DNA from: a virus
Taxonomy: Duplodnaviria > Heunggongvirae > Uroviricota > Caudoviricetes
Direction: 5' to 3' (one strand)
Length of the DNA stretch: 38,662 nucleotides
Virus record (IMG/VR): IMGVR_UViG_2541047816_000001
The position numbers and the translations under genes were made by a program. The notes beneath the pieces are model-generated. The model made no database searches and was not told the origin of the DNA. It was given only the letters and a program-made list of their open reading frames with translations. Positions 1,144-14,734 of the stretch are shown here, piece after piece; positions within the stretch are counted from its first letter, which is position 1, and the number at the start of each line of letters is the position of its first letter.

Positions 1144-1824
1144 TTAATGCATTTTAGTTACATCTATGTTTTTATTGATTGTCTCTTTGTTACTGGAAAG
1201 TCTTTGTTCTTTTCTTTTAATGTATAACTCCCAACGAATATTATTCATTATGATAGCGTAGATATTAAAAATAAATGTCTTTACTACTAACACTAAGTAA
1301 ATAAGGCTAGTCCCTATAACACAGTATCCAAATTTAATAATTAATTCTTTTATCGATTTTGAATATGGAAATAAATCAATTATATTGCCAATTATTCCAT
1401 CTTTTTGACAAAAGAGAATTATTATTAGATAAATGAAAGTAAACGTAATAAATGAGATGAAAACTTTCATAAATGCCATAAAGTTATATTTTAACGTGGG
1501 CATCTGTGTTTTTTTATGTTGTATTGACATCATCTGAAGAAACATCTCGGGTTTGGATAGTGTTGCAAATATTGTGAAACCAGCAATGAGAAAACCTAAG
1601 GTTGTCACTGCAAAGTTAAAACCAATCAAAGCCCAGTTTCTAATGTCAGATACTAAATGAGACATATCCTTCTCAATAAAAAAAGAGTTTGTTAATAAAA
1701 AAATAGATGCTGTGAGCAAAATGCAAATATGGAATGTACTAATAGTAATCCGTTTGCAGAGCAAGTAAACATCCCAAAGGTTTTTCTCTTTGGTTATTTC
1801 TTTAGCATCTATTTTATTTATCAT
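1144..1824 (-). CDS. Hypothetical integral membrane protein, about 4 predicted TM helices, part of AT-rich moron cassette
   Basis: 226-aa ORF; four long hydrophobic stretches; very low GC (about 30%) versus prophage backbone; start overlaps upstream gene stop by 4 nt. Confidence 0.6.
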   Translation of the reverse strand: MINKIDAKEITKEKNLWDVYLLCKRITISTFHICILLTASIFLLTNSFFIEKDMSHLVSDIRNWALIGFNFAVTTLGFLIAGFTIFATLSKPEMFLQMMSIQHKKTQMPTLKYNFMAFMKVFISFITFTFIYLIIILFCQKDGIIGNIIDLFPYSKSIKELIIKFGYCVIGTSLIYLVLVVKTFIFNIYAIIMNNIRWELYIKRKEQRLSSNKETINKNIDVTKMH

Positions 1825-2849
1825 CGACCAAACCTTTCATATATATTGCTAATAATTCTAATCGTCTTTTGTGAAAGAGAACGGGGTAGAGATATCTTAC
1901 CTTCTTCTACAAGATTTTCATACCGCTCATAACTTTCATTTGCAGCTACTACCGTATCCTTTGATAATTCATTCATCTCACTTAACAAAACAAAGTCATC
2001 ATTGCTACCTTTGATTATATCACCATTGTCATCATATCCTTTAATATTTATTCCTGAATTAGCCAATCTGGTTGCTGATGTGAGTTGTTCTAAAACAGCA
2101 CCATGATTCAAGCCTGAATCGGTGTTTGAAAAGCGAATAGATGTAGAAATACTTCCCATTTCGTCTCCGGCACTTTCAAGTGACTCCCAAAATTCGTCGT
2201 TATCAATTTCTTCTTGATTTGTAGGGAGAAGTTTTACTGAGACATTTTGGATTTTATTAAAATTATCAATAAATTGCTCTAGGCTTTGTTTGTCAGTTAA
2301 CGGCGTTATTCTTAGCTTCGGGCGTTTGATTTCGTTCCGTAAGCTTTTTTTAGTGACTCGAGGTAAGTCAGGGTTTTCTTTGCGTTCTTCTTGTGCGGTT
2401 TCGTATAAATGAGATATGTATTTTTCATATTCTATGTTTAAGAAACACTGACTTGTTGACTGAAAGTTTTGAATTGTGGGAGCACCACTAACTTCCTTGC
2501 AAAGAATTAATCTGTGAGTGTTTAATATTAGAAGAAAGAAAGAGCTCGGGGCTGTTTCAAGCTCTTGATGATCTTCAACCAAATCAGCACCATCAAATAC
2601 TTGTTCTCTGGTTAATAATGTATTCTTAATAATCCGACCTTTAATTCCGAGTACTGGGGGTGTTGCTTCTTCGTCAAGTATGACGCATTCAGTATCAATG
2701 AAAAAGAACTCTGATTTGTCAGATATTCTGCGGATGTTTGCCATCTCCAAAAAAGAGGGGAAAACAATTTCATCATAATAGTCTAGCAAAACATCATCAC
2801 CAAAACGGAGAGTATAATTTCCAAATTCGAGTTTTTTTATAAAATCCAT
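1821..2849 (-). CDS. Hypothetical soluble protein, 342 aa, first gene of AT-rich cassette downstream of the repressor
   Basis: Long ORF with acidic stretches and no motif I recognise; 15 nt downstream of the repressor stop, co-oriented, translationally coupled to the membrane protein gene. Confidence 0.6.
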   Translation of the reverse strand: MDFIKKLEFGNYTLRFGDDVLLDYYDEIVFPSFLEMANIRRISDKSEFFFIDTECVILDEEATPPVLGIKGRIIKNTLLTREQVFDGADLVEDHQELETAPSSFFLLILNTHRLILCKEVSGAPTIQNFQSTSQCFLNIEYEKYISHLYETAQEERKENPDLPRVTKKSLRNEIKRPKLRITPLTDKQSLEQFIDNFNKIQNVSVKLLPTNQEEIDNDEFWESLESAGDEMGSISTSIRFSNTDSGLNHGAVLEQLTSATRLANSGINIKGYDDNGDIIKGSNDDFVLLSEMNELSKDTVVAANESYERYENLVEEGKISLPRSLSQKTIRIISNIYERFGR

Positions 2850-2864
2850 TACTATGCCTCAAGA

Positions 2865-3743
2865 TTAAATAGTACGGTACTGTGAGAAAATTTTGGCAAC
2901 TAATTTTATATCTTCTTTTTCACAATCAAATGTTAAATCATCGTCTGTTACTCGAAGATTGCCTCCAGGTAATAGAAAAATTTGTTTTAACTTGAAATTA
3001 TTTTGGTATTGAACAATCCATCTTCCGTCTTCAACATTAGCTTTATTCATGTGTGCAATATTTATGCAATGTTCGTCTTCAATTGCGAGTAAATCATTAA
3101 AATGAGGAAGCAGGGACTTATCTATCAATAAATGACCAGCATCGAAAATTTGATTGTCAATAAGTTTTACTTTAGGAATTTCTAAAGCTTCACTTTCTTC
3201 GCTTCCAAGTTTTTGCCCGCGCCCAGTTGCTAACCATAAAAGAGAAGTTCTTGTTTCCAACGAGCATCTTATGATCCAGTCAGCTGGGAATGTGTCTCGC
3301 AAGTATCTATTCGCCATTGTGCTTTTAGACACATTCAAATGGTCGGCAAGTTCTTGTCTTGTTTTAAAGCCATACGCTTCCATTAGCCTGTTTATCGCAT
3401 TACGTCCACCTGAATCCAGATTTGGATGGTTCACAATTGGGTTCTCGTTGGTGGTGGCTTTGGGAACATATTGAACCAATGATGCTGGTTCCTCTAATTT
3501 AGCGGGAACTTCGGTATTCTTAGGAAATGGCACGCCTTTTCCGAATGAGAGCCACTCTATAGATGCTCCTGTTTCAATTGCACACTGAATTACCCAGTCA
3601 GCAGGAAATGCGTCACGCATCCAGCGCGTTCCCATAGTACTTGCAGATACATTGAACTGTTCACATAGGGCTTGCCGCGTCTTGAATCCATACGCTTCAA
3701 GCATGCGCGTTATGACTGCCTGTCCTCCGTTTTTGAAATTCAT
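2865..3743 (-). CDS. Immunity repressor, phage 186 CI-like, with tandemly duplicated N-terminal HTH domain
   Basis: Two homologous segments (..RMLEAYGFKTRQALCEQFNVSASTMGTRWMRDAFPADWVIQCAIETGASIEWL.. and ..RLMEAYGFKTRQELADHLNVSKSTMANRYLRDTFPADWIIRCSLETRTSLLWL..) resembling the 186 CI N-terminal domain as I recall it, plus a C-terminal domain; position between int and the Apl/Cox-like gene, transcribed divergently from it. Confidence 0.7.
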   Translation of the reverse strand: MNFKNGGQAVITRMLEAYGFKTRQALCEQFNVSASTMGTRWMRDAFPADWVIQCAIETGASIEWLSFGKGVPFPKNTEVPAKLEEPASLVQYVPKATTNENPIVNHPNLDSGGRNAINRLMEAYGFKTRQELADHLNVSKSTMANRYLRDTFPADWIIRCSLETRTSLLWLATGRGQKLGSEESEALEIPKVKLIDNQIFDAGHLLIDKSLLPHFNDLLAIEDEHCINIAHMNKANVEDGRWIVQYQNNFKLKQIFLLPGGNLRVTDDDLTFDCEKEDIKLVAKIFSQYRTI

Positions 3744-5923: not shown

Positions 5924-6222
5924 CAGGGGCTGTGCGTATCCATCAATTAAAAATTGCACCTAAGTATTTCAACGCTGTGGTTGCAGGTCAAAAGACGGCT
6001 GAACTTCGTAAAGACGATCGTGGCTATAAAGTTGGTGATGTTCTTTCTCTTTGCGAATGGAAGCATGGCGTATTTACGGGTAGGGAATGGGCCGCGGTTA
6101 TCTCTCATGTGCTTCCGGTTAATGACGTCATGGCAGTTTCAGAACAATGGGTGATGCTATCAATTCGCTCATTAACCCCATTAGAAGCTTTAGGATATGT
6201 TATTGCAGGAGGTGCTGTATGA
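5920..6222 (+). CDS. Small PUA/ASCH-like domain protein
   Basis: 100-aa ORF from ATG 5920 (ATGA overlap with previous stop, GGAGGTG RBS); sequence pattern ..[28 protein letters not shown].. resembles ASCH/DUF-type domains common in P2-like early regions (family assignment tentative). Confidence 0.45.
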
Positions 6223-7085
6223 GCACCATCCTGAAATGGGCGGGAAATAAAACCGCAATTATGTCCGAACTGAAAAAACACCTTCCTGCTGGCCCGCGAC
6301 TGGTTGAACCTTTCGCGGGTTCCTGTGCTGTGATGATGGAGACGGATTATCCAAGCTATCTGGTTGCGGATATTAATCCTGATTTAATCAACCTCTATAA
6401 AAAGGTTGCCGCTGATTGTGAATCGTTTATATCTCGCGCCAGAGTTTTATTTAAGGAAGCAAACAGGGAGGTGGCTTATTACAACATAAGGCAGGAGTTT
6501 AATTACTCAAATGAAATTACTGATTTCATGAAAGCGGTATATTTCCTGTATCTCAATCGTCACGGTTACCGTGGTTTATGTCGCTATAACAAGAGCGGGC
6601 ATTTCAACATTCCCTACGGTAATTATAAAAATCCGTATTTCCCAGAAAAAGAAATTCGCGCATTTGCAGAAAAAGCCCAGCGGGCAACGTTTATCTGCGC
6701 CAGCTTTGATGAAACGCTGGCGATGTTGAAGGCGGGGGATGTGGTGTATTGCGATCCGCCGTATGACGGCACGTTTTCCGGTTATCACACTGACGGCTTC
6801 ACTGAAGATGACCAGTATCACCTGGCATCCGTTCTTGAACATCGGTCATCAGAAGGACATCCGGTCATTGTTTCTAACAGTGACACATCCCTGATCCGTT
6901 CGCTGTATCGCAATTTTACTCACCACTACATCAAGGCAAAACGCAGCATCGGCGTAGCAGCTGGTGAGAGTAAATCTGCAACAGAAATCATCGCTGTTTC
7001 TGGGCGCGCTGCTGGGTGGGATTTGAGCCTTCGCGTGGCGTGGATAGTTCTGCCGTGTACGGAGTGCGTGCATGAGCCATGCTGA
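6219..7085 (+). CDS. DNA N6-adenine methyltransferase, Dam family
   Basis: N-terminal LKWAGNK, FAGSCAV SAM-binding region and catalytic DPPY motif (CDPPYDGTF); ATG 6219 overlaps previous stop. Confidence 0.8.
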
Positions 7086-9486
7086 TATGAACAACTGCAG
7101 CGGCTTTAACGAGGCCGCCGCAGCATTCTCATGGAACAGCCCGAAAAAGGCTATTAACCCTTATCTGGACCCGGCGGAAGTTGCGCCGGTTTCTGCGCTT
7201 TCAAACCTGATCACTCTGTACGCTGCCGATAACGAGCAGGAACAACTGCGCCGCGAGGCACTGAGTGATCAGGTCTGGGAGCGTTATTTCTTTAATGAAT
7301 CCCGTGATCCTGTCCAACGCGAAATGGAGCAGGATAAGCTCATTAGCCGGGCAAAGCTGGCGCATGAGCAGCAGCGTTTTAATCCAGATATGGTCATTCT
7401 GGCGGACGTCAATGCCCAGCCTTCCCATATCAGCAAGCCGCTGTTGCAACGTATTGAATACTTCAGCAGCCTAGGCAGGCCAAAGGCTTATTCCCGCTAT
7501 TTGCGTGAGACGATTAAGCCATGTCTGGAACGACTGGAGCATGTACGCGACAGTCAGCTATCCACTTCTTTTCGCTTTATGGCAAGCCATGAAGGGCTGG
7601 ACGGCCTGCTGATCCTGCCTGAAATGAGTCAGGATCAGGTGAAACGCTTGTCTACCCTTGTCGCTGCGCATATGAGCATGTGCCTTGATGCAGCTTGTGG
7701 CGATTTGTATGTCACCGATGACGTTAAGCCAGAAGAAATCCGCAAGACATGGGAAAAGGTGGCAGCGGAAACCCTGCGTCTGGATGTCATCCCGCCTGCG
7801 TTTGATCAACTCCGCCGGAAAAGAAACCGCCGTAAACCCGTGCCCTATGAACTCATTCCGGGTTCGCTGGCGCGTATGTTGTGCGCCGACTGGTGGTACC
7901 GGAAATTATGGAAGATGCGTTGCGAATGGCGGGAAGAGCAGTTGCGTGCTGTTTGCCTGGTCAGCAAAAAAGCATCTCCCTATGTCAGCTATGAAGCCGT
8001 GATGCATAAACGTGAGCAGCGCCGTAAGTCGCTGGAGTTTTTTCGTTCTCATGAACTGGTGAACGAAGACGGCGACACGCTGGACATGGAGGATGTGGTA
8101 AACGCCAGCAGCAGCAACCCTGCGCATCGCCGCAATGAGATGATGGCCTGTGTTAAAGGCCTGGAGCTTATCGCGGAAATGCGCGGTGACTGCGCCGTTT
8201 TCTACACCATCACCTGTCCGTCACGTTTCCATTCCACGCTAAATAACGGCAGGCCCAACCCAACCTGGACAAATGCGACGGTAAGACAAAGTAGTGATTA
8301 TCTGGTCGGCATGTTTGCTGCATTTCGTAAGGCGATGCACAAAGCCGGATTGCGCTGGTATGGCGTGCGGGTGGCTGAGCCGCATCATGACGGTACAGTT
8401 CACTGGCACCTGTTGTGTTTTATGCGCAAAAAAGACCGCCGCGCCATCACTGCATTACTGCGTAAGTTTGCCATCCGTGAAGACCGCGAGGAGCTGGGCA
8501 ATAACACTGGGCCGCGCTTTAAGTCTGAGTTGATTAACCCGCGCAAAGGTACGCCAACAAGCTACATCGCGAAATACATCAGTAAGAACATGGACGGGCG
8601 TGGTCTGGCTGGCGAGATCAGCAAGGAAACGGGGAAATCCCTGCGTGATAATGCTGAATACGTTAATGCTTGGGCGTCTCTGCATCGTGTTCAGCAATTC
8701 CGCTTCTTTGGCATTCCGGGGCGTCAGGCTTACCGTGAACTGCGATTGCTGGCTGGTCAGGCGGCAAGGCAACAGGGGGACAAAAAAGCAGGTGCGCCGG
8801 TACTGGATAACCCGCGCCTTGATGCAATCCTGGCTGCTGCTGATGCTGGTTGTTTTGCCACCTACATTATGAAGCAGGGCGGCGTACTGGTTCCCCGCAA
8901 ATATCACCTTATCAGAACAGCTTATGAAATTAACGAAGAGCCGACCGCCTATGGCGATCACGGTATTCGTATTTATGGCATCTGGTCACCCATTGCAGAG
9001 GGCAAGATTTGTACTCATGCAGTGAAGTGGAAAATGGTTCGTAAGGCCGTTGACGTTCAGGAGGCGGCAGCCGACCAGGGCGCTTGCGCCCCTTGGACTC
9101 GTGGCAATAACTGTCCCCTTGCTGAAAATTTGAACCAACAGGAGAAAGATAAATCAACAGATGGGGATACCAGAACTGACATTACCTGTATGGATGACAA
9201 GGAGTTGCACGATTACCTGCATAGTATGAGCAAAAAAGAGCGCCAGGAACTGGCAGCAAGATTACGCCTGGTGAAACCGAAACGGCGTAAAGACTACAAA
9301 CAGCGAATTACAGAGTATCAGCGTCAGCAGCTCGTCTATGAACTGAAGTCAAGAGGATTTGATGGCAGCGAGAAAGAGGTCGATTTACTCCTTCGCGGTG
9401 GCAGTATTCCGTCAGGAGCAGGCCTGCGTATCTTCTATCGGAACCAGCGTTTGCAGGAAGATGATAAGTGGCGGAACCTGTATTAA
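7072..9486 (+). CDS. A: Rolling-circle replication initiation endonuclease (P2 gpA-like)
   Basis: 804-aa ORF; HUH-type motif (GTVHWHLL) followed by paired-tyrosine motif (YIAKYISK); position after early genes. Confidence 0.85.
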
Positions 9487-9577
9487 TCACGTGGGTTAAC
9501 AATTCGTGCTCTTAATAATACCAGGCATATCAGGCTGATGAACGTAAAAAACGTTTTACATCAGTAAGATTATTATA

Positions 9578-9597
9578 TACTGTAAATATAAACAGTG
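9578..9597. promoter_or_regulatory. LexA-box-like motif TACTGTAAATATAAACAGTG
   Basis: Seen directly: CTGT-N8-ACAG with TACTGT/ACAGT flanks and AT-rich spacer, in AT-rich intergenic region about 40 nt upstream of a small ORF with strong RBS. Confidence 0.5.
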
Positions 9598-9638
9598 GTT
9601 GTGCATACAGTATTGCTTGTGGTGTCATAGGAGGAAAG

Positions 9639-9809
9639 ATGCAGGACTATTTTTTGGAGTCTTTGAAGCTCCAGCGCATTGATTTTTTTCTTAAGCTTGT
9701 AGCGGCTAGTGAGTGTAGTGATGAAGAGAAGGGGCTGGCTCTGCAGTGGGTTTCTGAGTTGACTGATGAGCTGATGGCGAGAATTCGCGCTCATGAATAC
9801 AACCACTAG
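9639..9809 (+). CDS. Small hypothetical protein (56 aa), possible SOS-controlled antirepressor-type gene
   Basis: ATG preceded by TAGGAGGAAAG RBS; below the 60-aa threshold of the ORF track; function inferred only from position downstream of the LexA-like box. Confidence 0.35.
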   Translation: MQDYFLESLKLQRIDFFLKLVAASECSDEEKGLALQWVSELTDELMARIRAHEYNH

Positions 9810-9973
9810 ATGGATCTTCCCAGTAGTTTTTCGAAACTGAAAACAACCGAGTGAAAGTTACGACACTTGAGCTTTTCACTTGGGTTATAATCAGAATACT
9901 TGTTTTCGTCCACAAATGTACATGCCATGCATTAATGTGGTGATAGCTTTCAATTTTTACTAAATGGTTTCAA

Positions 9974-10528
9974 TTGCTTCTTATGAATCATGTAATGTTA
10001 GATATAGAAACATTGGATGTTGAAAAAACAGCTTATATCCTTTCAGTTGGTGCGGCTTTTTTCGTGCCGGAGACTGGCGAGATTGGTCCGGGTTTCTATC
10101 AAGTTATTTCGCTTGATCATGAACAAGCAGGCAGAACCATTGCCCCCTCTACTGTAAAGTGGTGGATGAATCAAAGTACTGAAGCTAAAAACGAAAATTT
10201 TGATGGCACTAAGGACCTTTTAGAGGTTCTGAATGAATTTGTGGCATTTATTCTTCATAATCGTACTGGCCGAGTAAAAGTGTGGGGAAACGGGAAAGAG
10301 TTTGACTGCACGATCATGCATCATGCCCTGTTACAGGCGGGTCTGGATTGCCCATGGTCATTCAGAGATACTCTTGACGTTAGAACCATCTTAGCACTTG
10401 GTGAAAGCAAAGGAATTTTTTCTCATGCTGATAAAAATTTCACTGGCATTAGGCACACAGCATTCGATGATGTTTTATTTCAGATCGCACAGGTTTCTCA
10501 CATCTATATGAATTTAAATAAAAAATAA
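9974..10528 (+). CDS. DEDDh-family (DnaQ-like) 3'-5' exonuclease domain protein
   Basis: Motifs in order: DIETLD (Exo I), VWGNGKEFD (Exo II region), HTAFDD (Exo III His/Asp). True start probably ATG 9983 or 9995 rather than TTG 9974. Confidence 0.6.
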   Translation: MLLMNHVMLDIETLDVEKTAYILSVGAAFFVPETGEIGPGFYQVISLDHEQAGRTIAPSTVKWWMNQSTEAKNENFDGTKDLLEVLNEFVAFILHNRTGRVKVWGNGKEFDCTIMHHALLQAGLDCPWSFRDTLDVRTILALGESKGIFSHADKNFTGIRHTAFDDVLFQIAQVSHIYMNLNKK

Positions 10529-10543
10529 ATATAGGACTTAGCT

Positions 10544-11455
10544 ATGGATTGCTTAGATGTAACCTATTGGACTGAGCTAGATGTTTTCGCACAGTATCCT
10601 GTTGGTGCTCGCTCTAAGGCATTGGTTATTTCCCCTGATGTTGCCCCCCATGGTATCAAAGCATCGTGGCCGTATCTTTTTAAGAGAAGTATTAAAAAAT
10701 ACCCAGATCAATTTTGGTGTGAGATCGTTGCCTACAGGATTGGATTGCAGCTTGGTTTTAATGTCCCCAAAGCAGTTCCTTCGTTAAAGACTAATGATTT
10801 GGGGCATACGTTTTGCGGGGCCCTCATTGAGTGGTTTCATCATAAAGATTATGAGAAATTTGCTCCCGCTGGTGATTACTTTGTTCGAAGAGATCCAAAT
10901 TTTGATCGTGAGAAAGGAGCTAAGCATTCCATTGAAGGGCTGAGGATTATCGCGAAAGCTCTTAAAGTTGACTATGTTGAGTGGTTGGAGAATATGGCTC
11001 TCTTTGACGCAGTAATAGGTAATACAGATAGACATCAAGAAAACTGGGGGTTTATCTTCTCCCCTTTAACCAGCGAGTGTCAGCTTGCACCATTTTTCGA
11101 TAATGGTACGAGCTTATGCTACGAACGCTTTCCGGAACATGTTGCTGATTGGACCGATCATAGACTCAGGGAGCATGTTAGCCGGGGAAAGCATCATTTG
11201 CGTAAAACTCTGGGCAAAGATGAGTATCAGAGATTAGGTCATTTAGAGTTAATCAAAGAACTTTGTGATAAAAAAGAAGAATTAAAACAGCGGGTAGCTG
11301 AAAGACTGGCTCGTTTGAACCATGACTTTTGGGACTCAACTTTTGCGGAGTTGACGGAAATAAACTGCCCTGTTCCGCTGACTAGAGAACGTGCTGCATG
11401 GATTGTTCGTGTAACAAACATGCGTATTGAACTGATTAAAGGTGTTACTTCATGA
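10544..11455 (+). CDS. HipA-family Ser/Thr kinase core lacking the HipA N-subdomain (HipT-like)
   Basis: Three HipA kinase motifs in correct order and spacing: G21-ARSK (cf. HipA GAQEK), IGNTDRHQEN at 158-167 (catalytic loop, cf. HipA GATDGHAKN), FFDNGTS at 184-190 (Mg-binding, cf. HipA FYDI); 303 aa. Confidence 0.6.
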   Translation: MDCLDVTYWTELDVFAQYPVGARSKALVISPDVAPHGIKASWPYLFKRSIKKYPDQFWCEIVAYRIGLQLGFNVPKAVPSLKTNDLGHTFCGALIEWFHHKDYEKFAPAGDYFVRRDPNFDREKGAKHSIEGLRIIAKALKVDYVEWLENMALFDAVIGNTDRHQENWGFIFSPLTSECQLAPFFDNGTSLCYERFPEHVADWTDHRLREHVSRGKHHLRKTLGKDEYQRLGHLELIKELCDKKEELKQRVAERLARLNHDFWDSTFAELTEINCPVPLTRERAAWIVRVTNMRIELIKGVTS

Positions 11456-12156
11456 CTATCTTAATAGAAAAAATTCCCATGCCAAGTAGGCTCTTACTGA
11501 CATGGCAACCGACCGACGGCGGCTCTCGCTATGTCGTTGGTGAACTTCTTCAAGATGAGTCTGAAGGCTACGAGTTTAATTATCTTACGGATAGCAAAGA
11601 TTTTGCTAAAGCTGGGGATAAAGGCTTTCACGGTTTTCCTGCTTTTGACATAAAAGTTACGACTCATCGCAAAGACGTTATGCAAACCTTTTCAAGAAGG
11701 TTACCCTCCAGGAAAAGAGAAGATTTTGCCGATTACTTGCTGACGTTTCGTCTTCCTGCTGATTTTAGAGAGAATGACTTCGTTTTGCTCGCTTGTACTG
11801 GCGGAAAAGTGGCTAGTGATGGTTTTTATTTTGTCCCAGACTTGTCTTCTATTCGGCCACCTTTTGATTATGTCATGGAGGTCGCCGGAACGAGACACAT
11901 GATTAAGGAAGGGCGTCTAGCTCTTGACGAGATATCAATTGGTGATGAAGTCATATTGCGCAATGAAGATACCAATACTGTTGATCCGCTGGCCATATTA
12001 GTAACGAAAAACGACAATCATCTAGGGTATGTCAACAAGGCATTGTGCGCCGCATTACGAGATCTTAGTAAAAACCATGATATCAGTGGAGTGGTCGTAC
12101 GTAAAAATGGCTCTTCGGATAGGCCTTTGATTTATGCAAAAGTATCTGTTAGATGA
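11452..12156 (+). CDS. HipS-like N-domain fused to C-terminal HIRAN domain
   Basis: N-terminus LLTW...VGEL...F.Y pattern parallels the HipA N-subdomain (LVTW..VGEL..FKY); C-terminus GDEVILRNEDTNTVDPLAILVTKNDNHLGYVNKALCAALRDL fits the HIRAN signature; start overlaps kinase stop by 4 nt (ATGA). Confidence 0.5.
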   Translation: MTILIEKIPMPSRLLLTWQPTDGGSRYVVGELLQDESEGYEFNYLTDSKDFAKAGDKGFHGFPAFDIKVTTHRKDVMQTFSRRLPSRKREDFADYLLTFRLPADFRENDFVLLACTGGKVASDGFYFVPDLSSIRPPFDYVMEVAGTRHMIKEGRLALDEISIGDEVILRNEDTNTVDPLAILVTKNDNHLGYVNKALCAALRDLSKNHDISGVVVRKNGSSDRPLIYAKVSVR

Positions 12157-12466
12157 TGCATGTTTATTCATGCTTGCTAGTGATGCTGCATTCATAGAGT
12201 CTGTCAACTATGGAGATTTTTTCGTCTCATGCAACTACATTAAATTACCATTAAGTGGGTTGACGTTGCGGGGGAAGCATTACACGTCAGTATTGGTGCG
12301 TCTGAAGTGTCATGCCGAAAAGGTATGAAAAAGCCGCTTGGTAACATAACTATTCGCAATGATGTTGTAGGAAGCGAACTGGAAATGATAGCAATGGATG
12401 CTGTTGATGTAGTGTATGTATATGCTGCATGAGTTTGCATGAACGTTTGAGGCTCGTTTTTGTTAA

Positions 12467-12492
12467 GGCCCGCCAGAACTGGCGGGCTTTTG
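12467..12492 (+). terminator. Rho-independent terminator candidate downstream of the accessory operon
   Basis: GC stem GCCCGCC-loop-GGCGGGC followed by TTTTG. Confidence 0.45.
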
Positions 12493-12536
12493 CTCATGTC
12501 ATGCAGGTGCATGAAAACCACTACATAAAGCGGGCA

Positions 12537-12560
12537 GGCGTGGCGGGGATACGAGCGCAC
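12537..12560. other. Candidate cos site region (cohesive end)
   Basis: GGCGTGGCGGGGA... resembles the start of the P2/186 19-nt cohesive-end sequence as I recall it; expected location between the accessory region and Q. Confidence 0.3.
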
Positions 12561-12827
12561 GCCGCGGGTTGAAATAGTAAAATTCACTTAGCCTCAGGCC
12601 CGCTGATGGTTTTCTTCTGAAAGGGAGGGCGCGTTTTTGTGCAATCTTGTTTGAAGGGATTTAAATAAATGTTGAATGTGTTCCGGAGTTGGCTGTAGAT
12701 TTAGTGTTCTGTCACAAGTTGCAGTGATAGGTAGCAAACCTTTAAAAGGTTCTGCTATTGTTTCATTAAAGATTTATAGTCTTTGTCCGAAAATGACATT
12801 AAAGTAGTCGCCTTTAATGTCGTAAGC

Positions 12828-13382
12828 ATGAAGGACAGAGAATTGAACTTAGAGCAGATTGCCAGTCAAAGTATAAGTAACCTTCAGTTTCTCCTCGATA
12901 CTTTGAAGATGCCGTTGGCTGTTGGTCCAATCAGTGATGAAGACTATGTGATCCTGACCACAGGATACGCTCAGCTAGAATGGGATTATGGTTTTTCTCG
13001 GTTTGGCAATCGAAGTGATAAGTTTGAATTTTGTTTGAAGCTCCTTGCGGGGCCACTTAGGCATATCCCTTCTGGCGCAGCTATGTGCACCTTTGACGAG
13101 GACGCTGGAGTCATAGAGATCCATTTTGTGGAATCTTTTGTGAAAGATGATGACGTAGAGCACCCTCTTTACGGCAACATGTTCATGGTTACATTGTGGG
13201 CGGTATATCTTTTTGGTAGCGCGGTTGGGTGTCAAGAGATTCGGATCCCTGAAGCCCTGAATCAAAAAGTTGCTGACCACTATAAAAAATTTGGTTTTAA
13301 AGGTGATATAAGCTTGCTTTCGGCACCTTTTGCTACAATAACTGATGTAGTAAGACGCTACATTACTTCTAAGAAACAGTAG
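12828..13382 (+). CDS. Hypothetical cargo protein, weak GNAT-like C-terminal pattern
   Basis: ORF open from 12783 (TTG) with first ATG at 12828; C-terminal ..NQKVADHYKKFGFKG.. weakly resembles GNAT motif B; assignment tentative. Confidence 0.4.
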   Translation: MKDRELNLEQIASQSISNLQFLLDTLKMPLAVGPISDEDYVILTTGYAQLEWDYGFSRFGNRSDKFEFCLKLLAGPLRHIPSGAAMCTFDEDAGVIEIHFVESFVKDDDVEHPLYGNMFMVTLWAVYLFGSAVGCQEIRIPEALNQKVADHYKKFGFKGDISLLSAPFATITDVVRRYITSKKQ

Positions 13383-13461
13383 ATAAATTTTTGCGCAGTG
13401 CTACAATGCTGCGCCAAACATCCACTACCGGATGATGAGGCTTGACCTCTAAGAGGAAATC

Positions 13462-13641
13462 ATGACTATGACGCATAGTGACAAGAAAGCTCAGAAGCAT
13501 TACTCAGTATCTGATGTTTTCAGCCGTATGGGCGTCGCGATGGAAGAACTACTTCAAGCGGCCCCACATATGATGCAGGACTGCAAATTTGAAGGAAATG
13601 AGCTGCATGGTAAGCTCAAAGAAAAGCAGAAAGCTGCTTAA
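13462..13641 (+). CDS. Small hypothetical protein (59 aa)
   Basis: ATG preceded by AAGAGGAAAT RBS; followed by a strong terminator; below the ORF-track threshold. Confidence 0.35.
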   Translation: MTMTHSDKKAQKHYSVSDVFSRMGVAMEELLQAAPHMMQDCKFEGNELHGKLKEKQKAA

Positions 13642-13665
13642 TTCCATGAAATGCGTTTTGCATGA

Positions 13666-13690
13666 AGCCCGGTAATACCGGGCTTTTTTA
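13666..13690 (+). terminator. Rho-independent terminator
   Basis: AGCCCGGTA/TACCGGGCT hairpin followed by TTTTTT; sits between convergent small ORF and Q. Confidence 0.6.
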
Positions 13691-13696
13691 TGCTTG

Positions 13697-14734
13697 CTAG
13701 TCAGTATTAAGCTCATATGGATTGAATCGGACTACCTCTTCACCAAGCCATTCATTTAGCTCCAGCAATCGCTTTTGTAACGGTACTATTTCGTTTCTTG
13801 TGAAGACGCGACTGGCCTTTTCCACATCCCCAAAACCGCCGGTATTGTTGGGAATGATACCCATCATTTGCGGCGGCACACGATGCGCCGCCATCATGTC
13901 GTCCCGGCTCACGTTCTTGATATTCAGGAACTCATCCTTCGCCGCCACTTCTGACAACGGGATAATCTGAAGCCCATCCTTTTTGCCGTTAGGCGAGTAC
14001 ATAAACAGGTTACGGAAGTTACCAGGACCTTTGGCACTTTTCATTGCGTTGCGGAGGTTGTTCACATCCTCCTGGTTCTGCGCGGCGTCGGTCATGTACA
14101 TGATGAAGCCCGCATGGCTGCCGTTAATGTAATACTTCCGGCGGAACAGCGTGGCGGACTCGTTGAGCAGGGCTGACGGAATGGCAGAAAGATAACCGGG
14201 CAGGCCGTAGATCTCCTGGTTGATGTCCGGCTCCATCAGATGAAAAATGCTGCCTTTCGTGAACTGATACGGCTGGGTTGTCATACCGTATTGCACAAAC
14301 CAGTAGGTATCCAGGTCTAACCCGCGTCGGGTGTATTTTGCCAGAGCAGGCTCAAGGGCTATAACTTCACCGAAGCGGTTCGTGCGTTTCTCCAGGTAGG
14401 CGTTACCAAAAACCAGAAAGTCCTGTACAAAACGCGAAAAAGCCTGCTGGCTGAGCAGCGGGTGAGGGATGTAGGTGCTGGTCAGAATGTTGCACTTCAC
14501 TGCAATCGGTGAGCTATGATGTATGGCGGCGCGGAAGGTTCGCGCCAGTCCGTCGAAACTCACTGGTGGCTCATACCAGCGATCCATCTGTACGCATTCC
14601 ACATAGTCCAGCAGTTCGCGGCGGTCCAGAACAGGAACGGGATCACCGAAGCTGAATGCTTCGGCTGAAGTCTGGCTTTTATGCTGGATCTGTTTCGTCG
14701 ACGCAGCGCGGTTCTTCTTACTCTTTCCCATCAA
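13697..14734 (-). CDS. Q: Portal protein (P2 gpQ-like)
   Basis: 345 aa; size and position upstream of terminase ATPase; P2 late-gene synteny. Confidence 0.8.
   Translation of the reverse strand: MMGKSKKNRAASTKQIQHKSQTSAEAFSFGDPVPVLDRRELLDYVECVQMDRWYEPPVSFDGLARTFRAAIHHSSPIAVKCNILTSTYIPHPLLSQQAFSRFVQDFLVFGNAYLEKRTNRFGEVIALEPALAKYTRRGLDLDTYWFVQYGMTTQPYQFTKGSIFHLMEPDINQEIYGLPGYLSAIPSALLNESATLFRRKYYINGSHAGFIMYMTDAAQNQEDVNNLRNAMKSAKGPGNFRNLFMYSPNGKKDGLQIIPLSEVAAKDEFLNIKNVSRDDMMAAHRVPPQMMGIIPNNTGGFGDVEKASRVFTRNEIVPLQKRLLELNEWLGEEVVRFNPYELNTD

What the first reader, a model, noticed from the sequence alone, without database searches (positions are those of the whole stretch)
9974..10528. DEDDh 3'-5' exonuclease gene immediately upstream of the kinase operon: third component or independent anti-defence gene?
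Seen: Exo I, II and III motifs (DIETLD, VWGNGKEFD, HTAFDD); only 15 nt separate its stop from the kinase start, so co-transcription is likely. Inference: it could process DNA or RNA ends sensed by the HIRAN protein, or it could be a phage counter-defence nuclease (for example, degrading signalling nucleotides or RNA). Its start codon is ambiguous (TTG 9974, ATG 9983, ATG 9995).
Basis: partly seen in the sequence, partly recalled or inferred. Interest (0 to 1): 0.6.

Follow-up and report, generated by a model that had tools for sequence, protein, structure and literature searches.

The report
Exonuclease riding with a prophage kinase cassette
An intact DNA/RNA end-trimming enzyme (a relative of phage T4 DexA) is inherited as one three-gene block with a HipA-like kinase and a DNA-end-binding HIRAN protein in the defence-gene hotspot of P2-like prophages, which suggests that it tunes this suspected anti-phage switch rather than being an unrelated neighbour.

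Summary
Window 9983-10528 (+) encodes a 181-aa DEDDh 3'-5' exonuclease (Pfam Rv2179c-like, E 5e-50). All five catalytic residues are present, and its closest solved relative is T4 DexA. It lies 15 nt upstream of a HipI-type kinase gene, which overlaps hipN (HipS-like + HIRAN). That pair is the PADLOC candidate defence system PDC-M03. The window is a 186/P2-like E. coli prophage.

Compared with sister prophages, exo+hipI+hipN is a single low-GC replacement block (9815-12407) between gene A and cos. Most HipI/HipN loci lack the exonuclease (77 of 80 genome loci), so it is not a core component. Every P2-like-phage-borne Hip module sampled has it (17/17 viral contigs, against 0/6 non-P2), always 2-19 nt upstream of the kinase gene. 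The three genes show matching dS, purifying selection and correlated divergence from 95% down to 40% identity. Hip-linked exonucleases share derived residues at DexA substrate-contact positions, including R128 in place of Trp.

Best reading: it is a lineage-specific, co-transcribed third component that acts on the 3' ends sensed by HIRAN. The linkage is shown; the mechanism is inferred. An anti-defence role has no positive support. This is a new variant of a known candidate system, of moderate interest.

The parts
9815..12407 (.). Replacement block (cassette) relative to sister 186/P2-like prophages. It contains a leader, exo, hipI, hipN and a 3' untranslated stretch. It takes the place of the DinI-like (tum-type) gene.
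   Evidence: blastn homology to L094/L095 (95-96% identical flanks) stops at 9814/9815 and resumes at 12408-12412. GC is 0.38-0.44 here against about 0.53 in gene A and the portal gene.
9867..9891 (+). Conserved leader element: TTGAGC (9867-9872), 13 nt, then TATAAT (9886-9891). It may be the cassette's own promoter, but the spacing is non-canonical.
   Evidence: The block is almost invariant in cassettes whose coding regions are only 81-94% identical (alignment A4). It was not called by the sigma-70 consensus scan, so it is unverified.
9983..10528 (+). DEDDh 3'-5' exonuclease gene, 181 aa (alternative starts TTG 9974 and ATG 9995). It belongs to the Rv2179c-like / T4 DexA family.
   Evidence: Pfam PF16473 E 5e-50. 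PHROG 255. PDB profile hit to DexA 8kel, E 3e-16. Foldseek to 8kel, TM 0.8. Catalytic D7, E9, D108, H158 and D163 are conserved. dN/dS is 0.11-0.26.
10544..11455 (+). HipA-like Ser/Thr kinase (HipI type; PADLOC PDC-M03A), 303 aa.
   Evidence: Pfam HipA_C E 3.6e-10. PADLOC PDC-M03A E 4e-36. The kinase motif GNTDRHQEN and the DNG motif are visible in the translation.
11452..12156 (+). HipN-type partner (HipS-like N-terminal half + C-terminal HIRAN domain; PADLOC PDC-M03B), 234 aa. Its start overlaps the kinase stop by 4 nt.
   Evidence: Pfam HIRAN E 7e-8 at residues 140-219. PADLOC PDC-M03B E 4e-36. PDB profile hits to HLTF HIRAN domains. It is fused to the kinase in L013/L014.
12465..12493 (+). 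Strong hairpin followed by UUUUG. This is the probable terminator of the exo-hipI-hipN transcription unit.
   Evidence: RNA fold gives -21.5 kcal/mol, z -3.7 against shuffles. No terminator-like site lies between exo and hipN.
12537..12555 (.). Probable cos core (GGCGTGGCGGGGATACGAG), marking the right end of the A-to-cos cargo slot.
   Evidence: The sequence was read. The surrounding block 12499-12551 is conserved at DNA level even in distant P2-like loci L013/L014. Its resemblance to the P2/186 cos sequences is from my memory. A search with the P2 cos allowing up to 3 mismatches found nothing.

Best explanation
The gene encodes an active DEDDh 3'-5' exonuclease of the DexA/Rv2179c family. 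It is the first gene of a three-gene operon, exo-hipI-hipN, carried as one cargo cassette in the gene A-to-cos hotspot of a 186/P2-like prophage. It is a lineage-specific accessory component of the HipI kinase / HipN (HipS-like + HIRAN) module (PADLOC PDC-M03), not a core part of that module. The proposed mechanism is inferred. HipN holds the kinase inactive through its HipS-like half, and its HIRAN half senses free 3'-OH DNA ends produced during infection. The exonuclease attacks the same 3' ends or short oligonucleotides. It could set the threshold by removing background ends, including those made by the resident P2-type rolling-circle replication. Alternatively it could shape the ligand, or help degrade the invader once the kinase has been released to arrest translation. 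Shown here: gene integrity, operon-type spacing, block inheritance, shared evolutionary history, and near-restriction to phage-borne modules. Inferred: physical or functional coupling, the substrate, and the direction of the effect.
For: (1) The three genes form one mosaic block. Homology to sister prophages breaks at 9815 and 12408, and the whole block has a uniform low GC. (2) The exo stop to kinase start gap is 2-19 nt in all 35 linked loci. No promoter or terminator was called inside it, and the first strong hairpin comes only after hipN. (3) In E. coli complete genomes the exo DNA occurs in 6 genomes, and all 6 also carry hipI (hipIN complete in 5; in EC101 the match is cut at the start of the record). 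About 1280 genomes carry the flanking prophage sequence without the cassette. (4) Relatives at 94, 84, 81 and 53% exo identity keep exo-hipI-hipN while the cargo beyond cos changes. (5) From the Hip side, 17/17 HipN loci in P2-like viral contigs have the exo and 0/6 non-P2 loci do. Among the 80 genome loci, the only two in P2-like prophages both have it. From the exo side, no locus with exo directly after gene A lacks Hip; L235 is cut at the contig end. (6) The trio also occurs outside a recognisable P2 context, next to an IS3 element and groESL in Shewanella (L012). (7) The genes share a history. Pairwise identities of exo, kinase and HipN correlate with Mantel r 0.97-0.98. dS is equal across the three genes, and dN/dS is 0.05-0.26. 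(8) Hip-linked exos share the derived residues V13, P55, R128 and K143. R128 is in 15/15 linked against 6/126 other exos and occupies the position of DexA W152, a substrate-contact residue (PMC12153337). (9) There is an independent parallel. An unrelated DEDD subfamily, the NrnC-like diDNases, lies next to HipA + HIRAN genes in about a third of cases in Actinomycetes/Clostridia (PMC11706625). (10) HIRAN domains bind 3' DNA ends (cited in PMC8262856), and these are the substrate of a 3'-5' exonuclease.
Against: Most HipI/HipN modules work, or at least persist, without this exonuclease: 77/80 genome loci lack it, and PADLOC defines the system with two genes. The exonuclease family is mostly unlinked to Hip: 78/80 viral and 71/80 metagenomic exo loci lack it. 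The family includes stand-alone chromosomal genes at 48% identity, genes in Erf/SSB recombination modules, and early-operon genes of other P2-like phages. Co-divergence and equal dS would also follow from long vertical residence in phage lineages without any functional coupling. The restriction to P2-like phages could reflect common descent rather than need. No expression, interaction or phenotype data exist. PDC-M03 itself is only a predicted defence system.
Confidence: 0.5

Rival explanations
1. This is an independent phage accessory exonuclease. It would be a DexA-like enzyme serving the phage itself (nucleotide scavenging, recombination or replication-end processing) that has merely stayed next to the kinase cassette through shared descent in P2-like lineages.
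For: The family is common in phages without Hip genes: 605 phage records, 78/80 viral loci, and next to Erf and SSB. Other P2-like prophages carry a related exo in the early operon upstream of Dam and gene A (L092, L208). In the NJ tree these early-operon exos are the nearest relatives of the second Hip-linked clade. T4 DexA has phage-side roles (PMC12153337).
Against: Sister prophages with 95-98% identical backbones have no exo at all, so this phage lineage does not need one. The exo has the cargo's low GC and lies inside the cargo breakpoints. It is never seen after gene A without Hip, although this region turns over quickly. The trio also exists outside a P2 context. The linked exos share derived active-site-proximal residues.
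Confidence: 0.2
2. This is an independent stand-alone defence nuclease of the HREX type, a bacterial or prophage DexA homologue that degrades modified (5hmC) phage DNA. It would be stacked beside a second defence system in the hotspot.
For: An E. coli DexA homologue (EcD) was reported to digest T4 DNA and to protect against T4 (PMC12153337). The gene sits in a defence hotspot, and defence genes cluster. The residue equivalent to DexA D90, needed for tetramer formation, falls in a gap, as in the 'dimer-state' homologues.
Against: The Trp reported as required for 5hmC recognition (DexA W152) is Arg in this protein and in all 15 Hip-linked exos. By contrast 98 of 126 unlinked relatives have Trp or Tyr there. 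Independent defence genes in this hotspot are expected to reshuffle, but exo and hipI are never separated. PADLOC has no hit for the exo. I could not establish whether EcD belongs to this cluster.
Confidence: 0.12
3. This is a counter-defence nuclease. The prophage would use it to destroy a host immune signal or nucleic-acid trigger, such as signalling oligonucleotides or retron/CRISPR RNAs, independently of the kinase.
For: The enzyme is small and phage-borne, with an unknown substrate. Short deoxynucleotides can act as immune signals (ApeA preprint).
Against: There is no positive evidence. Anti-defence genes are rare in P2-like prophages: two types in 28 of 1511 elements (PMC13586616). The strict coupling to hipI/hipN, one operon and equal dS all argue against an unrelated role. 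Stand-alone relatives sit in ordinary chromosomal contexts.
Confidence: 0.08

Closest known systems
Bacteriophage T4 DexA (exonuclease A; PDB 8KEL/8KEN)
   Same: It has the same DEDDh fold and catalytic pentad. It is the best sequence-profile hit (E 3e-16) and the best fold hit (TM 0.8) among solved structures.
   Different: Identity is only about 20%. The window protein is shorter (181 against 227 aa) and lacks DexA's extra loops and the S87/D90 tetramer region. It has Arg where DexA has the substrate-contacting W152. It sits in a prophage cargo operon with a kinase, not in a lytic-phage nucleotide-metabolism context.
Rv2179c-like 3'-5' exoribonuclease family (Pfam PF16473; PHROG 255)
   Same: It gives a full-length, high-scoring match (E 5e-50) and so is a family member by sequence.
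   Different: The family name rests on RNA activity of the mycobacterial protein (my recollection; it was not in the readable library). DexA, from the same family, is a DNase. The substrate cannot be read from membership.
hipIN / HipL kinase modules (Gerdes et al. 2021, PMC8262856) = PADLOC candidate system PDC-M03
   Same: The two downstream genes match: a short HipA-like kinase plus a HipS-like-HIRAN partner. Relatives L013/L014 have them fused, which is the HipL architecture.
   Different: Both descriptions cover two genes or one fused gene. No exonuclease is part of either definition, and 77/80 genomic loci lack one. Here, and in all sampled modules borne by P2-like phages, an exo gene precedes the kinase.
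diDNase-HipA-HIRAN gene clusters of Actinomycetes/Clostridia (Mortensen et al. 2025, PMC11706625)
   Same: A DEDD-superfamily 3'-5' nuclease lies directly adjacent to HipA-domain and HIRAN-domain genes on mobile or defence-associated DNA. The authors left the functional link open.
   Different: diDNases are NrnC homologues specific for deoxydinucleotides. The window enzyme belongs to a different DEDD branch (DEDDh, DexA/Rv2179c-like; no NrnC-type Pfam hit). It occurs in Gammaproteobacteria and on P2-like phages.
HREX (E. coli DexA homologue EcD; Kang et al. 2025, PMC12153337)
   Same: It is a DexA-family exonuclease encoded in E. coli, and the D90 tetramerisation residue is absent.
   Different: The W152-equivalent is Arg, so a defining recognition residue is missing. 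The gene is operon-linked to a kinase module rather than stand-alone.
P2 old/tin-type lysogenic-conversion cargo in the gene A-to-cos hotspot (Rousset et al. 2022, PMC9122126)
   Same: It occupies the same genomic slot, has a foreign base composition, and shows presence/absence polymorphism among otherwise syntenic prophages.
   Different: The content differs. Neither that paper nor the 2026 survey (PMC13586616) mentions HipA, HIRAN or this exonuclease in the main text.

Membership tests
DEDDh (DnaQ/RNase T-like) 3'-5' exonucleases | Five catalytic residues: D and E in Exo I, D in Exo II, H-x4-D in Exo III | tested here: met
   D7, E9, D108, H158 and D163 are present and invariant across 14 to 141 homologues.
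DEDDh (DnaQ/RNase T-like) 3'-5' exonucleases | RNase H-like alpha/beta fold of RNase T / epsilon type | tested here: met
   The AlphaFold model has pLDDT 92.3. Foldseek finds DexA, then RNase T, ERI, Orn and Cap18 with probability 1.0.
Pfam PF16473 Rv2179c-like / PHROG 255 | Score above the curated threshold over the whole domain | tested here: met
   170 bits against a cut-off of 27, model positions 1-176 of 177. phrog_255 E 3e-60.
Pfam PF16473 Rv2179c-like / PHROG 255 | 3' exoribonuclease activity | not testable with these tools
   This needs an enzyme assay. The family also contains the DNase DexA.
HREX (DexA-type 5hmC-DNA-specific defence exonuclease) | Conserved Trp equivalent to DexA W152, required for cutting 5hmC DNA | tested here: not met
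   The profile alignment places R128 at this position. It is R in 15/15 Hip-linked exos, and W or Y in 98/126 others. The feature is defined in PMC12153337.
HREX (DexA-type 5hmC-DNA-specific defence exonuclease) | Acidic residue equivalent to DexA D169 | tested here: inconclusive
   The region aligns with gaps. The nearest residues are E141, S142 and K143, and K143 is a Hip-linked signature.
HREX (DexA-type 5hmC-DNA-specific defence exonuclease) | Stand-alone protection against T4-like phages | not testable with these tools
   This needs a phage challenge.
PDC-M03 / hipIN (HipI kinase + HipN) | HipA-like kinase gene followed by a HipS-like-HIRAN gene | tested here: met
   PDC-M03A E 4e-36 and PDC-M03B E 4e-36. 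Kinase-then-HipN order holds in all 73 of the 80 loci where a kinase was detected; the other 7 gave no kinase hit, several being cut at a contig end.
PDC-M03 / hipIN (HipI kinase + HipN) | The exonuclease as a defined or general component | tested here: not met
   There is no PADLOC model for it. It is present in 3/80 genome loci only. It is, however, present in 17/17 P2-like viral loci.
PDC-M03 / hipIN (HipI kinase + HipN) | Anti-phage activity | not testable with these tools
   It is a candidate system only. The papers read treat it as predicted.
diDNase (NrnC-like deoxydinucleotidase) | NrnC homology (DEDD, RNase D-like branch) | tested here: not met
   The only Pfam hits are Rv2179c-like and a weak RNase_T match. 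Exo III carries His (DEDDh).
CBASS Cap18 exonuclease | Encoded within a CBASS operon (CD-NTase + effector) | tested here: not met
   The neighbours are gene A, hipI and hipN. Cap18 is only a distant fold match, rank 46.
P2-like prophage hotspot cargo | Lies between gene A and cos/portal and is variable among syntenic prophages | tested here: met
   Breakpoints are at 9815 and 12408. The DinI-like gene occupies the slot in sister prophages.

The most novel reading that the evidence does not exclude
HipA-family kinase switches with HIRAN sensors are nuclease-tuned detectors of free 3' DNA ends or short DNA fragments. Unrelated DEDD exonucleases have been recruited to them repeatedly: DexA-like enzymes, possibly twice, on P2-like phages, and NrnC-like diDNases in Actinomycetes. 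Their role would be to create, edit or erase the alarm ligand. On a phage that itself replicates by nicking and rolling circle, the exonuclease would be the safety catch that lets the prophage carry the switch without triggering it.
Probability: 0.25. Interest if true: 0.8.

Novelty: new variant of a known kind. Interest (0 to 1): 0.5.

Why it matters
HipI/HipN (PDC-M03) is a widespread predicted defence module. None of the papers I could search and read reports its trigger or an experimental test. A conserved partner whose substrate (3' ends) matches the predicted ligand of the HIRAN domain gives a concrete, testable handle on how the kinase is controlled. It also links two observations that were separate until now: the diDNase-HipA-HIRAN clusters of Gram-positive bacteria and a three-gene cassette on enterobacterial P2-like phages. 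Practically, annotation tools that call PDC-M03 as two genes miss a gene that always travels with it on phages.

Tried and rejected
- **Promoter scan.** The sigma-70 consensus scan found no promoter in the leader or in the exo-hipI gap. The conserved TTGAGC-13 nt-TATAAT element has non-canonical spacing, so I do not claim a promoter.
- **Rfam.** A search of 9300-13800 found no known RNA family.
- **cos.** An exact or near-exact search with the P2 cos sequence found nothing. The cos assignment rests on a weaker resemblance and on DNA conservation.
- **PADLOC.** There was no hit for the exonuclease or for the other cargo ORFs.
- **One or two recruitments of the exo.** NJ trees never recover all Hip-linked exos as one clade (0/200). 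They place the window clade with stand-alone Serratia/Gibbsiella genes (67%) and the second clade near early-operon exos of P2-like phages. The Hip tree likewise intersperses unlinked modules. However, the intermediate L262 (exo 53%, HipN 64%), the shared signature residues and the tight co-divergence fit a single old association with escapes. I leave this unresolved, because 180-aa NJ trees are weak.
- **Other nucleases upstream of hipI.** A Pfam scan of 58 upstream neighbours gave mainly hsdS, integrases and methylases. No other DEDD nuclease appeared among the 25 most frequent of the 62 families found; the rest were not shown.
- **Identity of the published EcD.** I could not determine whether EcD (HAK9828821.1) belongs to this protein cluster.
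- **R128 outside Hip loci.** The 'R128' exos in L236 and L249 are C-terminal domains of an 851-aa fusion protein and are not relevant.
- **EC101.** Its frameshifted exo was disregarded because that assembly is full of frameshifts.

Full report
**1. What is in the window**

The window matches E. coli chromosomes SF-173 and FDAARGOS_1283 at 100%. It is a 186/P2-like prophage carrying integrase, CI, CII, Fil, Dam, the replication endonuclease gene A (7072-9486), then portal (13697-14734, minus strand), terminase and the capsid genes. The finding lies in the short plus-strand stretch between gene A and the portal gene.

**2. The observation**

The ORF and the three motifs are exactly as described. 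Pfam assigns it to the Rv2179c-like 3'-5' exoribonuclease domain: E 5.1e-50, model positions 1-176 of 177, plus a weak RNase_T hit. PHROGs assigns it to phrog_255 'exonuclease'.

A profile of the protein and its relatives hits one group of solved structures, T4 DexA (8KEL/8KEN, E 3e-16). An AlphaFold model (pLDDT 92.3) superposes best on DexA (TM about 0.8), followed by RNase T and other DEDDh enzymes. D7, E9, D108, H158 and D163 are invariant.

For the start codon, homologues from 36 to 94% identity begin M-x-[HN]-[VLI]-M-[LI]-D, and the Pfam model begins at the residue after the 9983 Met. ATG 9983 is therefore the best start; PGAP uses 9995. The codon at 9974 reads TTG, ATG or GTG in relatives. 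That does not discriminate between the candidates.

**3. Neighbours**

The next gene (10544-11455) is a HipA_C kinase. The gene after it (11452-12156, with a 4-nt overlap) has a C-terminal HIRAN domain. PADLOC calls the two genes PDC-M03A and PDC-M03B, each at E 4e-36, and gives no hit for the exonuclease.

In the classification of Gerdes et al. (PMC8262856) this pair is hipIN. HipI is a short kinase. HipN consists of a HipS-like domain, proposed to neutralise the kinase, and a HIRAN domain, proposed to bind DNA ends. The fused form is HipL.

**4. Operon and cassette structure**

The gap between exo and kinase is 15 nt and contains TAGGA 7 nt before the ATG. The scan called no promoter or terminator there. 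The first strong hairpin (-21.5 kcal/mol, z -3.7) is at 12465-12490, after hipN. It is followed by a probable cos core at 12537-12555.

GC is 0.38-0.44 from 9400 to 13700, against about 0.53 in the phage backbone. Sister prophages with 95-96% identical flanks carry a DinI-like gene in place of this region. Their homology stops at 9814/9815 and resumes at 12408-12412. The exonuclease, kinase and HipN genes therefore make up one replacement block. Its leader (9824-9982) is conserved among cassettes and includes a TATAAT hexamer at 9886-9891 with a badly spaced -35-like element. Whether the cassette has its own promoter remains unproven.

**5. Is the exonuclease a general partner of the kinase module? 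No.**

A pattern scan of one genome per species returned 80 HipN loci across Proteobacteria and beyond. In 73 of them the kinase lies directly upstream of HipN. Only 3 have a family-related exonuclease (L012, L013, L014), and in each it sits immediately upstream of the kinase. Upstream neighbours elsewhere are mostly type I R-M specificity subunits, integrases and methylases.

**6. Is the kinase module a general partner of the exonuclease? No.**

- The family occurs in 605 phage records.
- Of the 80 best viral loci, 2 have Hip genes. Of the 80 best metagenomic loci, 9 do.
- Relatives at 48% identity are stand-alone chromosomal genes in Serratia and Gibbsiella.
- A 40% relative sits beside Erf and SSB in a lambdoid-type phage.
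- Other P2-like prophages carry a related exo in the early operon upstream of Dam and gene A, without Hip genes.

**7. On P2-like phages the linkage is complete in every sample I could draw**

- In E. coli complete genomes the exo DNA occurs in 6 genomes, and all 6 also carry hipI. hipIN is complete in 5 of them; in EC101 the match is cut at the start of the record.
- Close and intermediate relatives (94, 84, 81 and 53% exo identity) keep exo-hipI-hipN, while the cargo beyond cos varies: AAA_21+RloB, a 357-aa unknown, or the window's 199-aa ORF.
- Searching viral contigs from the HipN side gave 23 loci. The 17 with gene A upstream and/or a portal gene downstream all carry the exo. The 6 without P2 markers all lack it.
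- In the genome set, the only two loci in P2-like prophages are two of the three with the exo.
- Searching from the second exo type found it only together with HipL.
- Complete P2-like phage genomes in the phage collection (Escherichia phage 899, Yersinia phage GMG73) carry gene A, exo, fused HipL and portal in that order.
- The stop-to-start gap is 2-19 nt in all 35 linked loci.
- One lineage (L012/L227, Shewanella) has the trio next to an IS3 element and groESL with no P2 genes in view.

**8. Shared history**

Between window-clade cassettes, dS is the same for the three genes. For the window against L006 it is 0.93, 0.88 and 0.97. All three genes are under purifying selection: dN/dS is 0.11-0.26 for exo, 0.07-0.19 for hipI and 0.05-0.11 for hipN.

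Across 14 linked loci, pairwise identities track each other from 93/95/96% down to 39/40/46%. Mantel r is 0.97-0.98, as tight for exo-kinase as for kinase-HipN.

The trees are less tidy. NJ bootstraps never unite all Hip-linked exos (0/200). They put the window clade with the Serratia stand-alone genes (67%) and the second clade near early-operon exos of P2-like phages. The concatenated kinase+HipN tree intersperses four unlinked lineages between the two linked groups. Either the exo was recruited twice, or it is ancestral to this Hip subclade and has escaped or been lost several times. The data do not decide between these.

**9. A sequence signature**

Both linked groups share V13, P55, R128 and K143, each found in 2-12% of unlinked relatives. 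R128 is present in 15/15 linked exos and 6/126 others. One of those six, L235, sits after gene A at a contig end. Two others lie in an 851-aa fusion protein.

In the profile alignment R128 occupies the position of DexA W152, and K143 lies next to the position of D169. Kang et al. found those two residues necessary for cutting 5hmC-modified T4 DNA but not unmodified DNA (PMC12153337). The linked enzymes therefore have a changed, more basic substrate site. They fail a defining feature of the published 'HREX' stand-alone defence exonuclease.

**10. Literature parallel**

Mortensen et al. (PMC11706625) found that about a third of NrnC-like deoxydinucleotidase genes in Actinomycetes and Clostridia lie directly next to HipA-domain and HIRAN-domain genes. 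They left the functional link open. That enzyme belongs to a different DEDD branch from the one here. The association of a 3'-5' DEDD nuclease with this kinase module therefore recurs with non-orthologous enzymes. A 2026 preprint reports that 5'-phosphorylated deoxydinucleotides, which its authors consider likely to arise from host DNA breakdown, activate another defence protein, ApeA. This makes small DNA products plausible immune signals.

**11. Interpretation**

The shown facts are as follows:
- the enzyme is intact and under selection;
- the spacing is operon-type;
- the three genes are inherited as one block and share a history;
- the exo is restricted to phage-borne (mostly P2-like) versions of the module;
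- the linked enzymes share a derived substrate site.

From these I infer that the exonuclease is a lineage-specific accessory component of the hipIN/hipL module. I further infer that it works on the same chemical feature, a free 3' end, that HIRAN domains bind.

Why only on P2-like phages is open. These phages replicate from a nick made by the gene A protein (established knowledge of P2 biology). A resident 3'-end sensor might therefore need an end-trimming activity to avoid self-triggering. This is speculation. Common descent of all phage-borne cassettes explains the distribution equally well.

The rival that the gene is simply a phage exonuclease sitting next to cargo is weakened in three ways: sister prophages have no such gene, it lies inside the cargo breakpoints, and it is never seen at this position without Hip. 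The HREX-type rival fails on W152. The anti-defence rival has no positive evidence.

**12. Verdict**

This is a three-gene, phage-borne variant of a known candidate system. It is not a new kind of system, and the enzyme itself is an ordinary family member. Interest is moderate. The value lies in the testable link between a 3'-5' exonuclease and a HIRAN-controlled kinase, now seen in two distant bacterial groups.

Noticed in passing
window 9815-12407, compared with L094 3339-3572 and L095 4339-4572: The cassette replaces the DinI-like gene that sister prophages carry after gene A. In phage 186 that gene type is the SOS-inducible antirepressor Tum (my recollection). This prophage may therefore have lost SOS inducibility.
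   Followed up: partly
window 12465-12555: A strong hairpin (-21.5 kcal/mol) is followed by a probable cos core, GGCGTGGCGGGGATACGAG. The block 12499-12551 is conserved at DNA level (80-82%) even in distant P2-like loci from Serratia-type phages.
   Followed up: partly
window 12783-13382 and 13462-13641 (+): A second cargo slot lies between cos and the portal gene. It holds a 199-aa protein (phrog_4350) and a 59-aa protein (phrog_2741), neither with a Pfam or PADLOC match, ending at a strong terminator at 13664-13686. Relatives carry AAA_21+RloB or a 357-aa unknown there instead (L003, L004).
   Followed up: partly
window 1144-1824 (-) and 1821-2849 (-): Two overlapping genes of unknown function (226 and 342 aa) lie between the integrase and CI genes, with no Pfam or PADLOC hit. 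This may be another cargo position. The adjacent CI (2865-3743, minus strand, 292 aa) shows two CI-type HTH stretches.
   Followed up: partly
L013 7044-8687, L014 7038-8687, L119, L297 (Escherichia phage 899): In the second group of P2-like phages the kinase and the HipS-like-HIRAN partner are fused into one protein of about 548 aa (HipL architecture). This is direct fusion evidence that the two downstream genes of the window act together.
   Followed up: yes
L020, L021, L029, L038, L041 and others (upstream of hipI): In bacterial chromosomes hipIN often sits immediately after type I restriction-modification specificity genes (8 of 58 upstream neighbours) or next to integrases. This fits residence in defence islands.
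   Followed up: partly
window 6147-7085 (+): RefSeq marks the Dam methylase gene upstream of gene A as frameshifted. In the window the ORF reads through with an odd C-terminal tail that overlaps the start of gene A.
   Followed up: no
L092 7013-7588, L208 4001-4834: Other P2-like prophages carry a related Rv2179c-like exonuclease in the early operon between Fil and Dam, with no Hip genes. They have HEPN or other cargo after gene A. P2-like phages therefore have at least two distinct positions for this enzyme family.
   Followed up: partly
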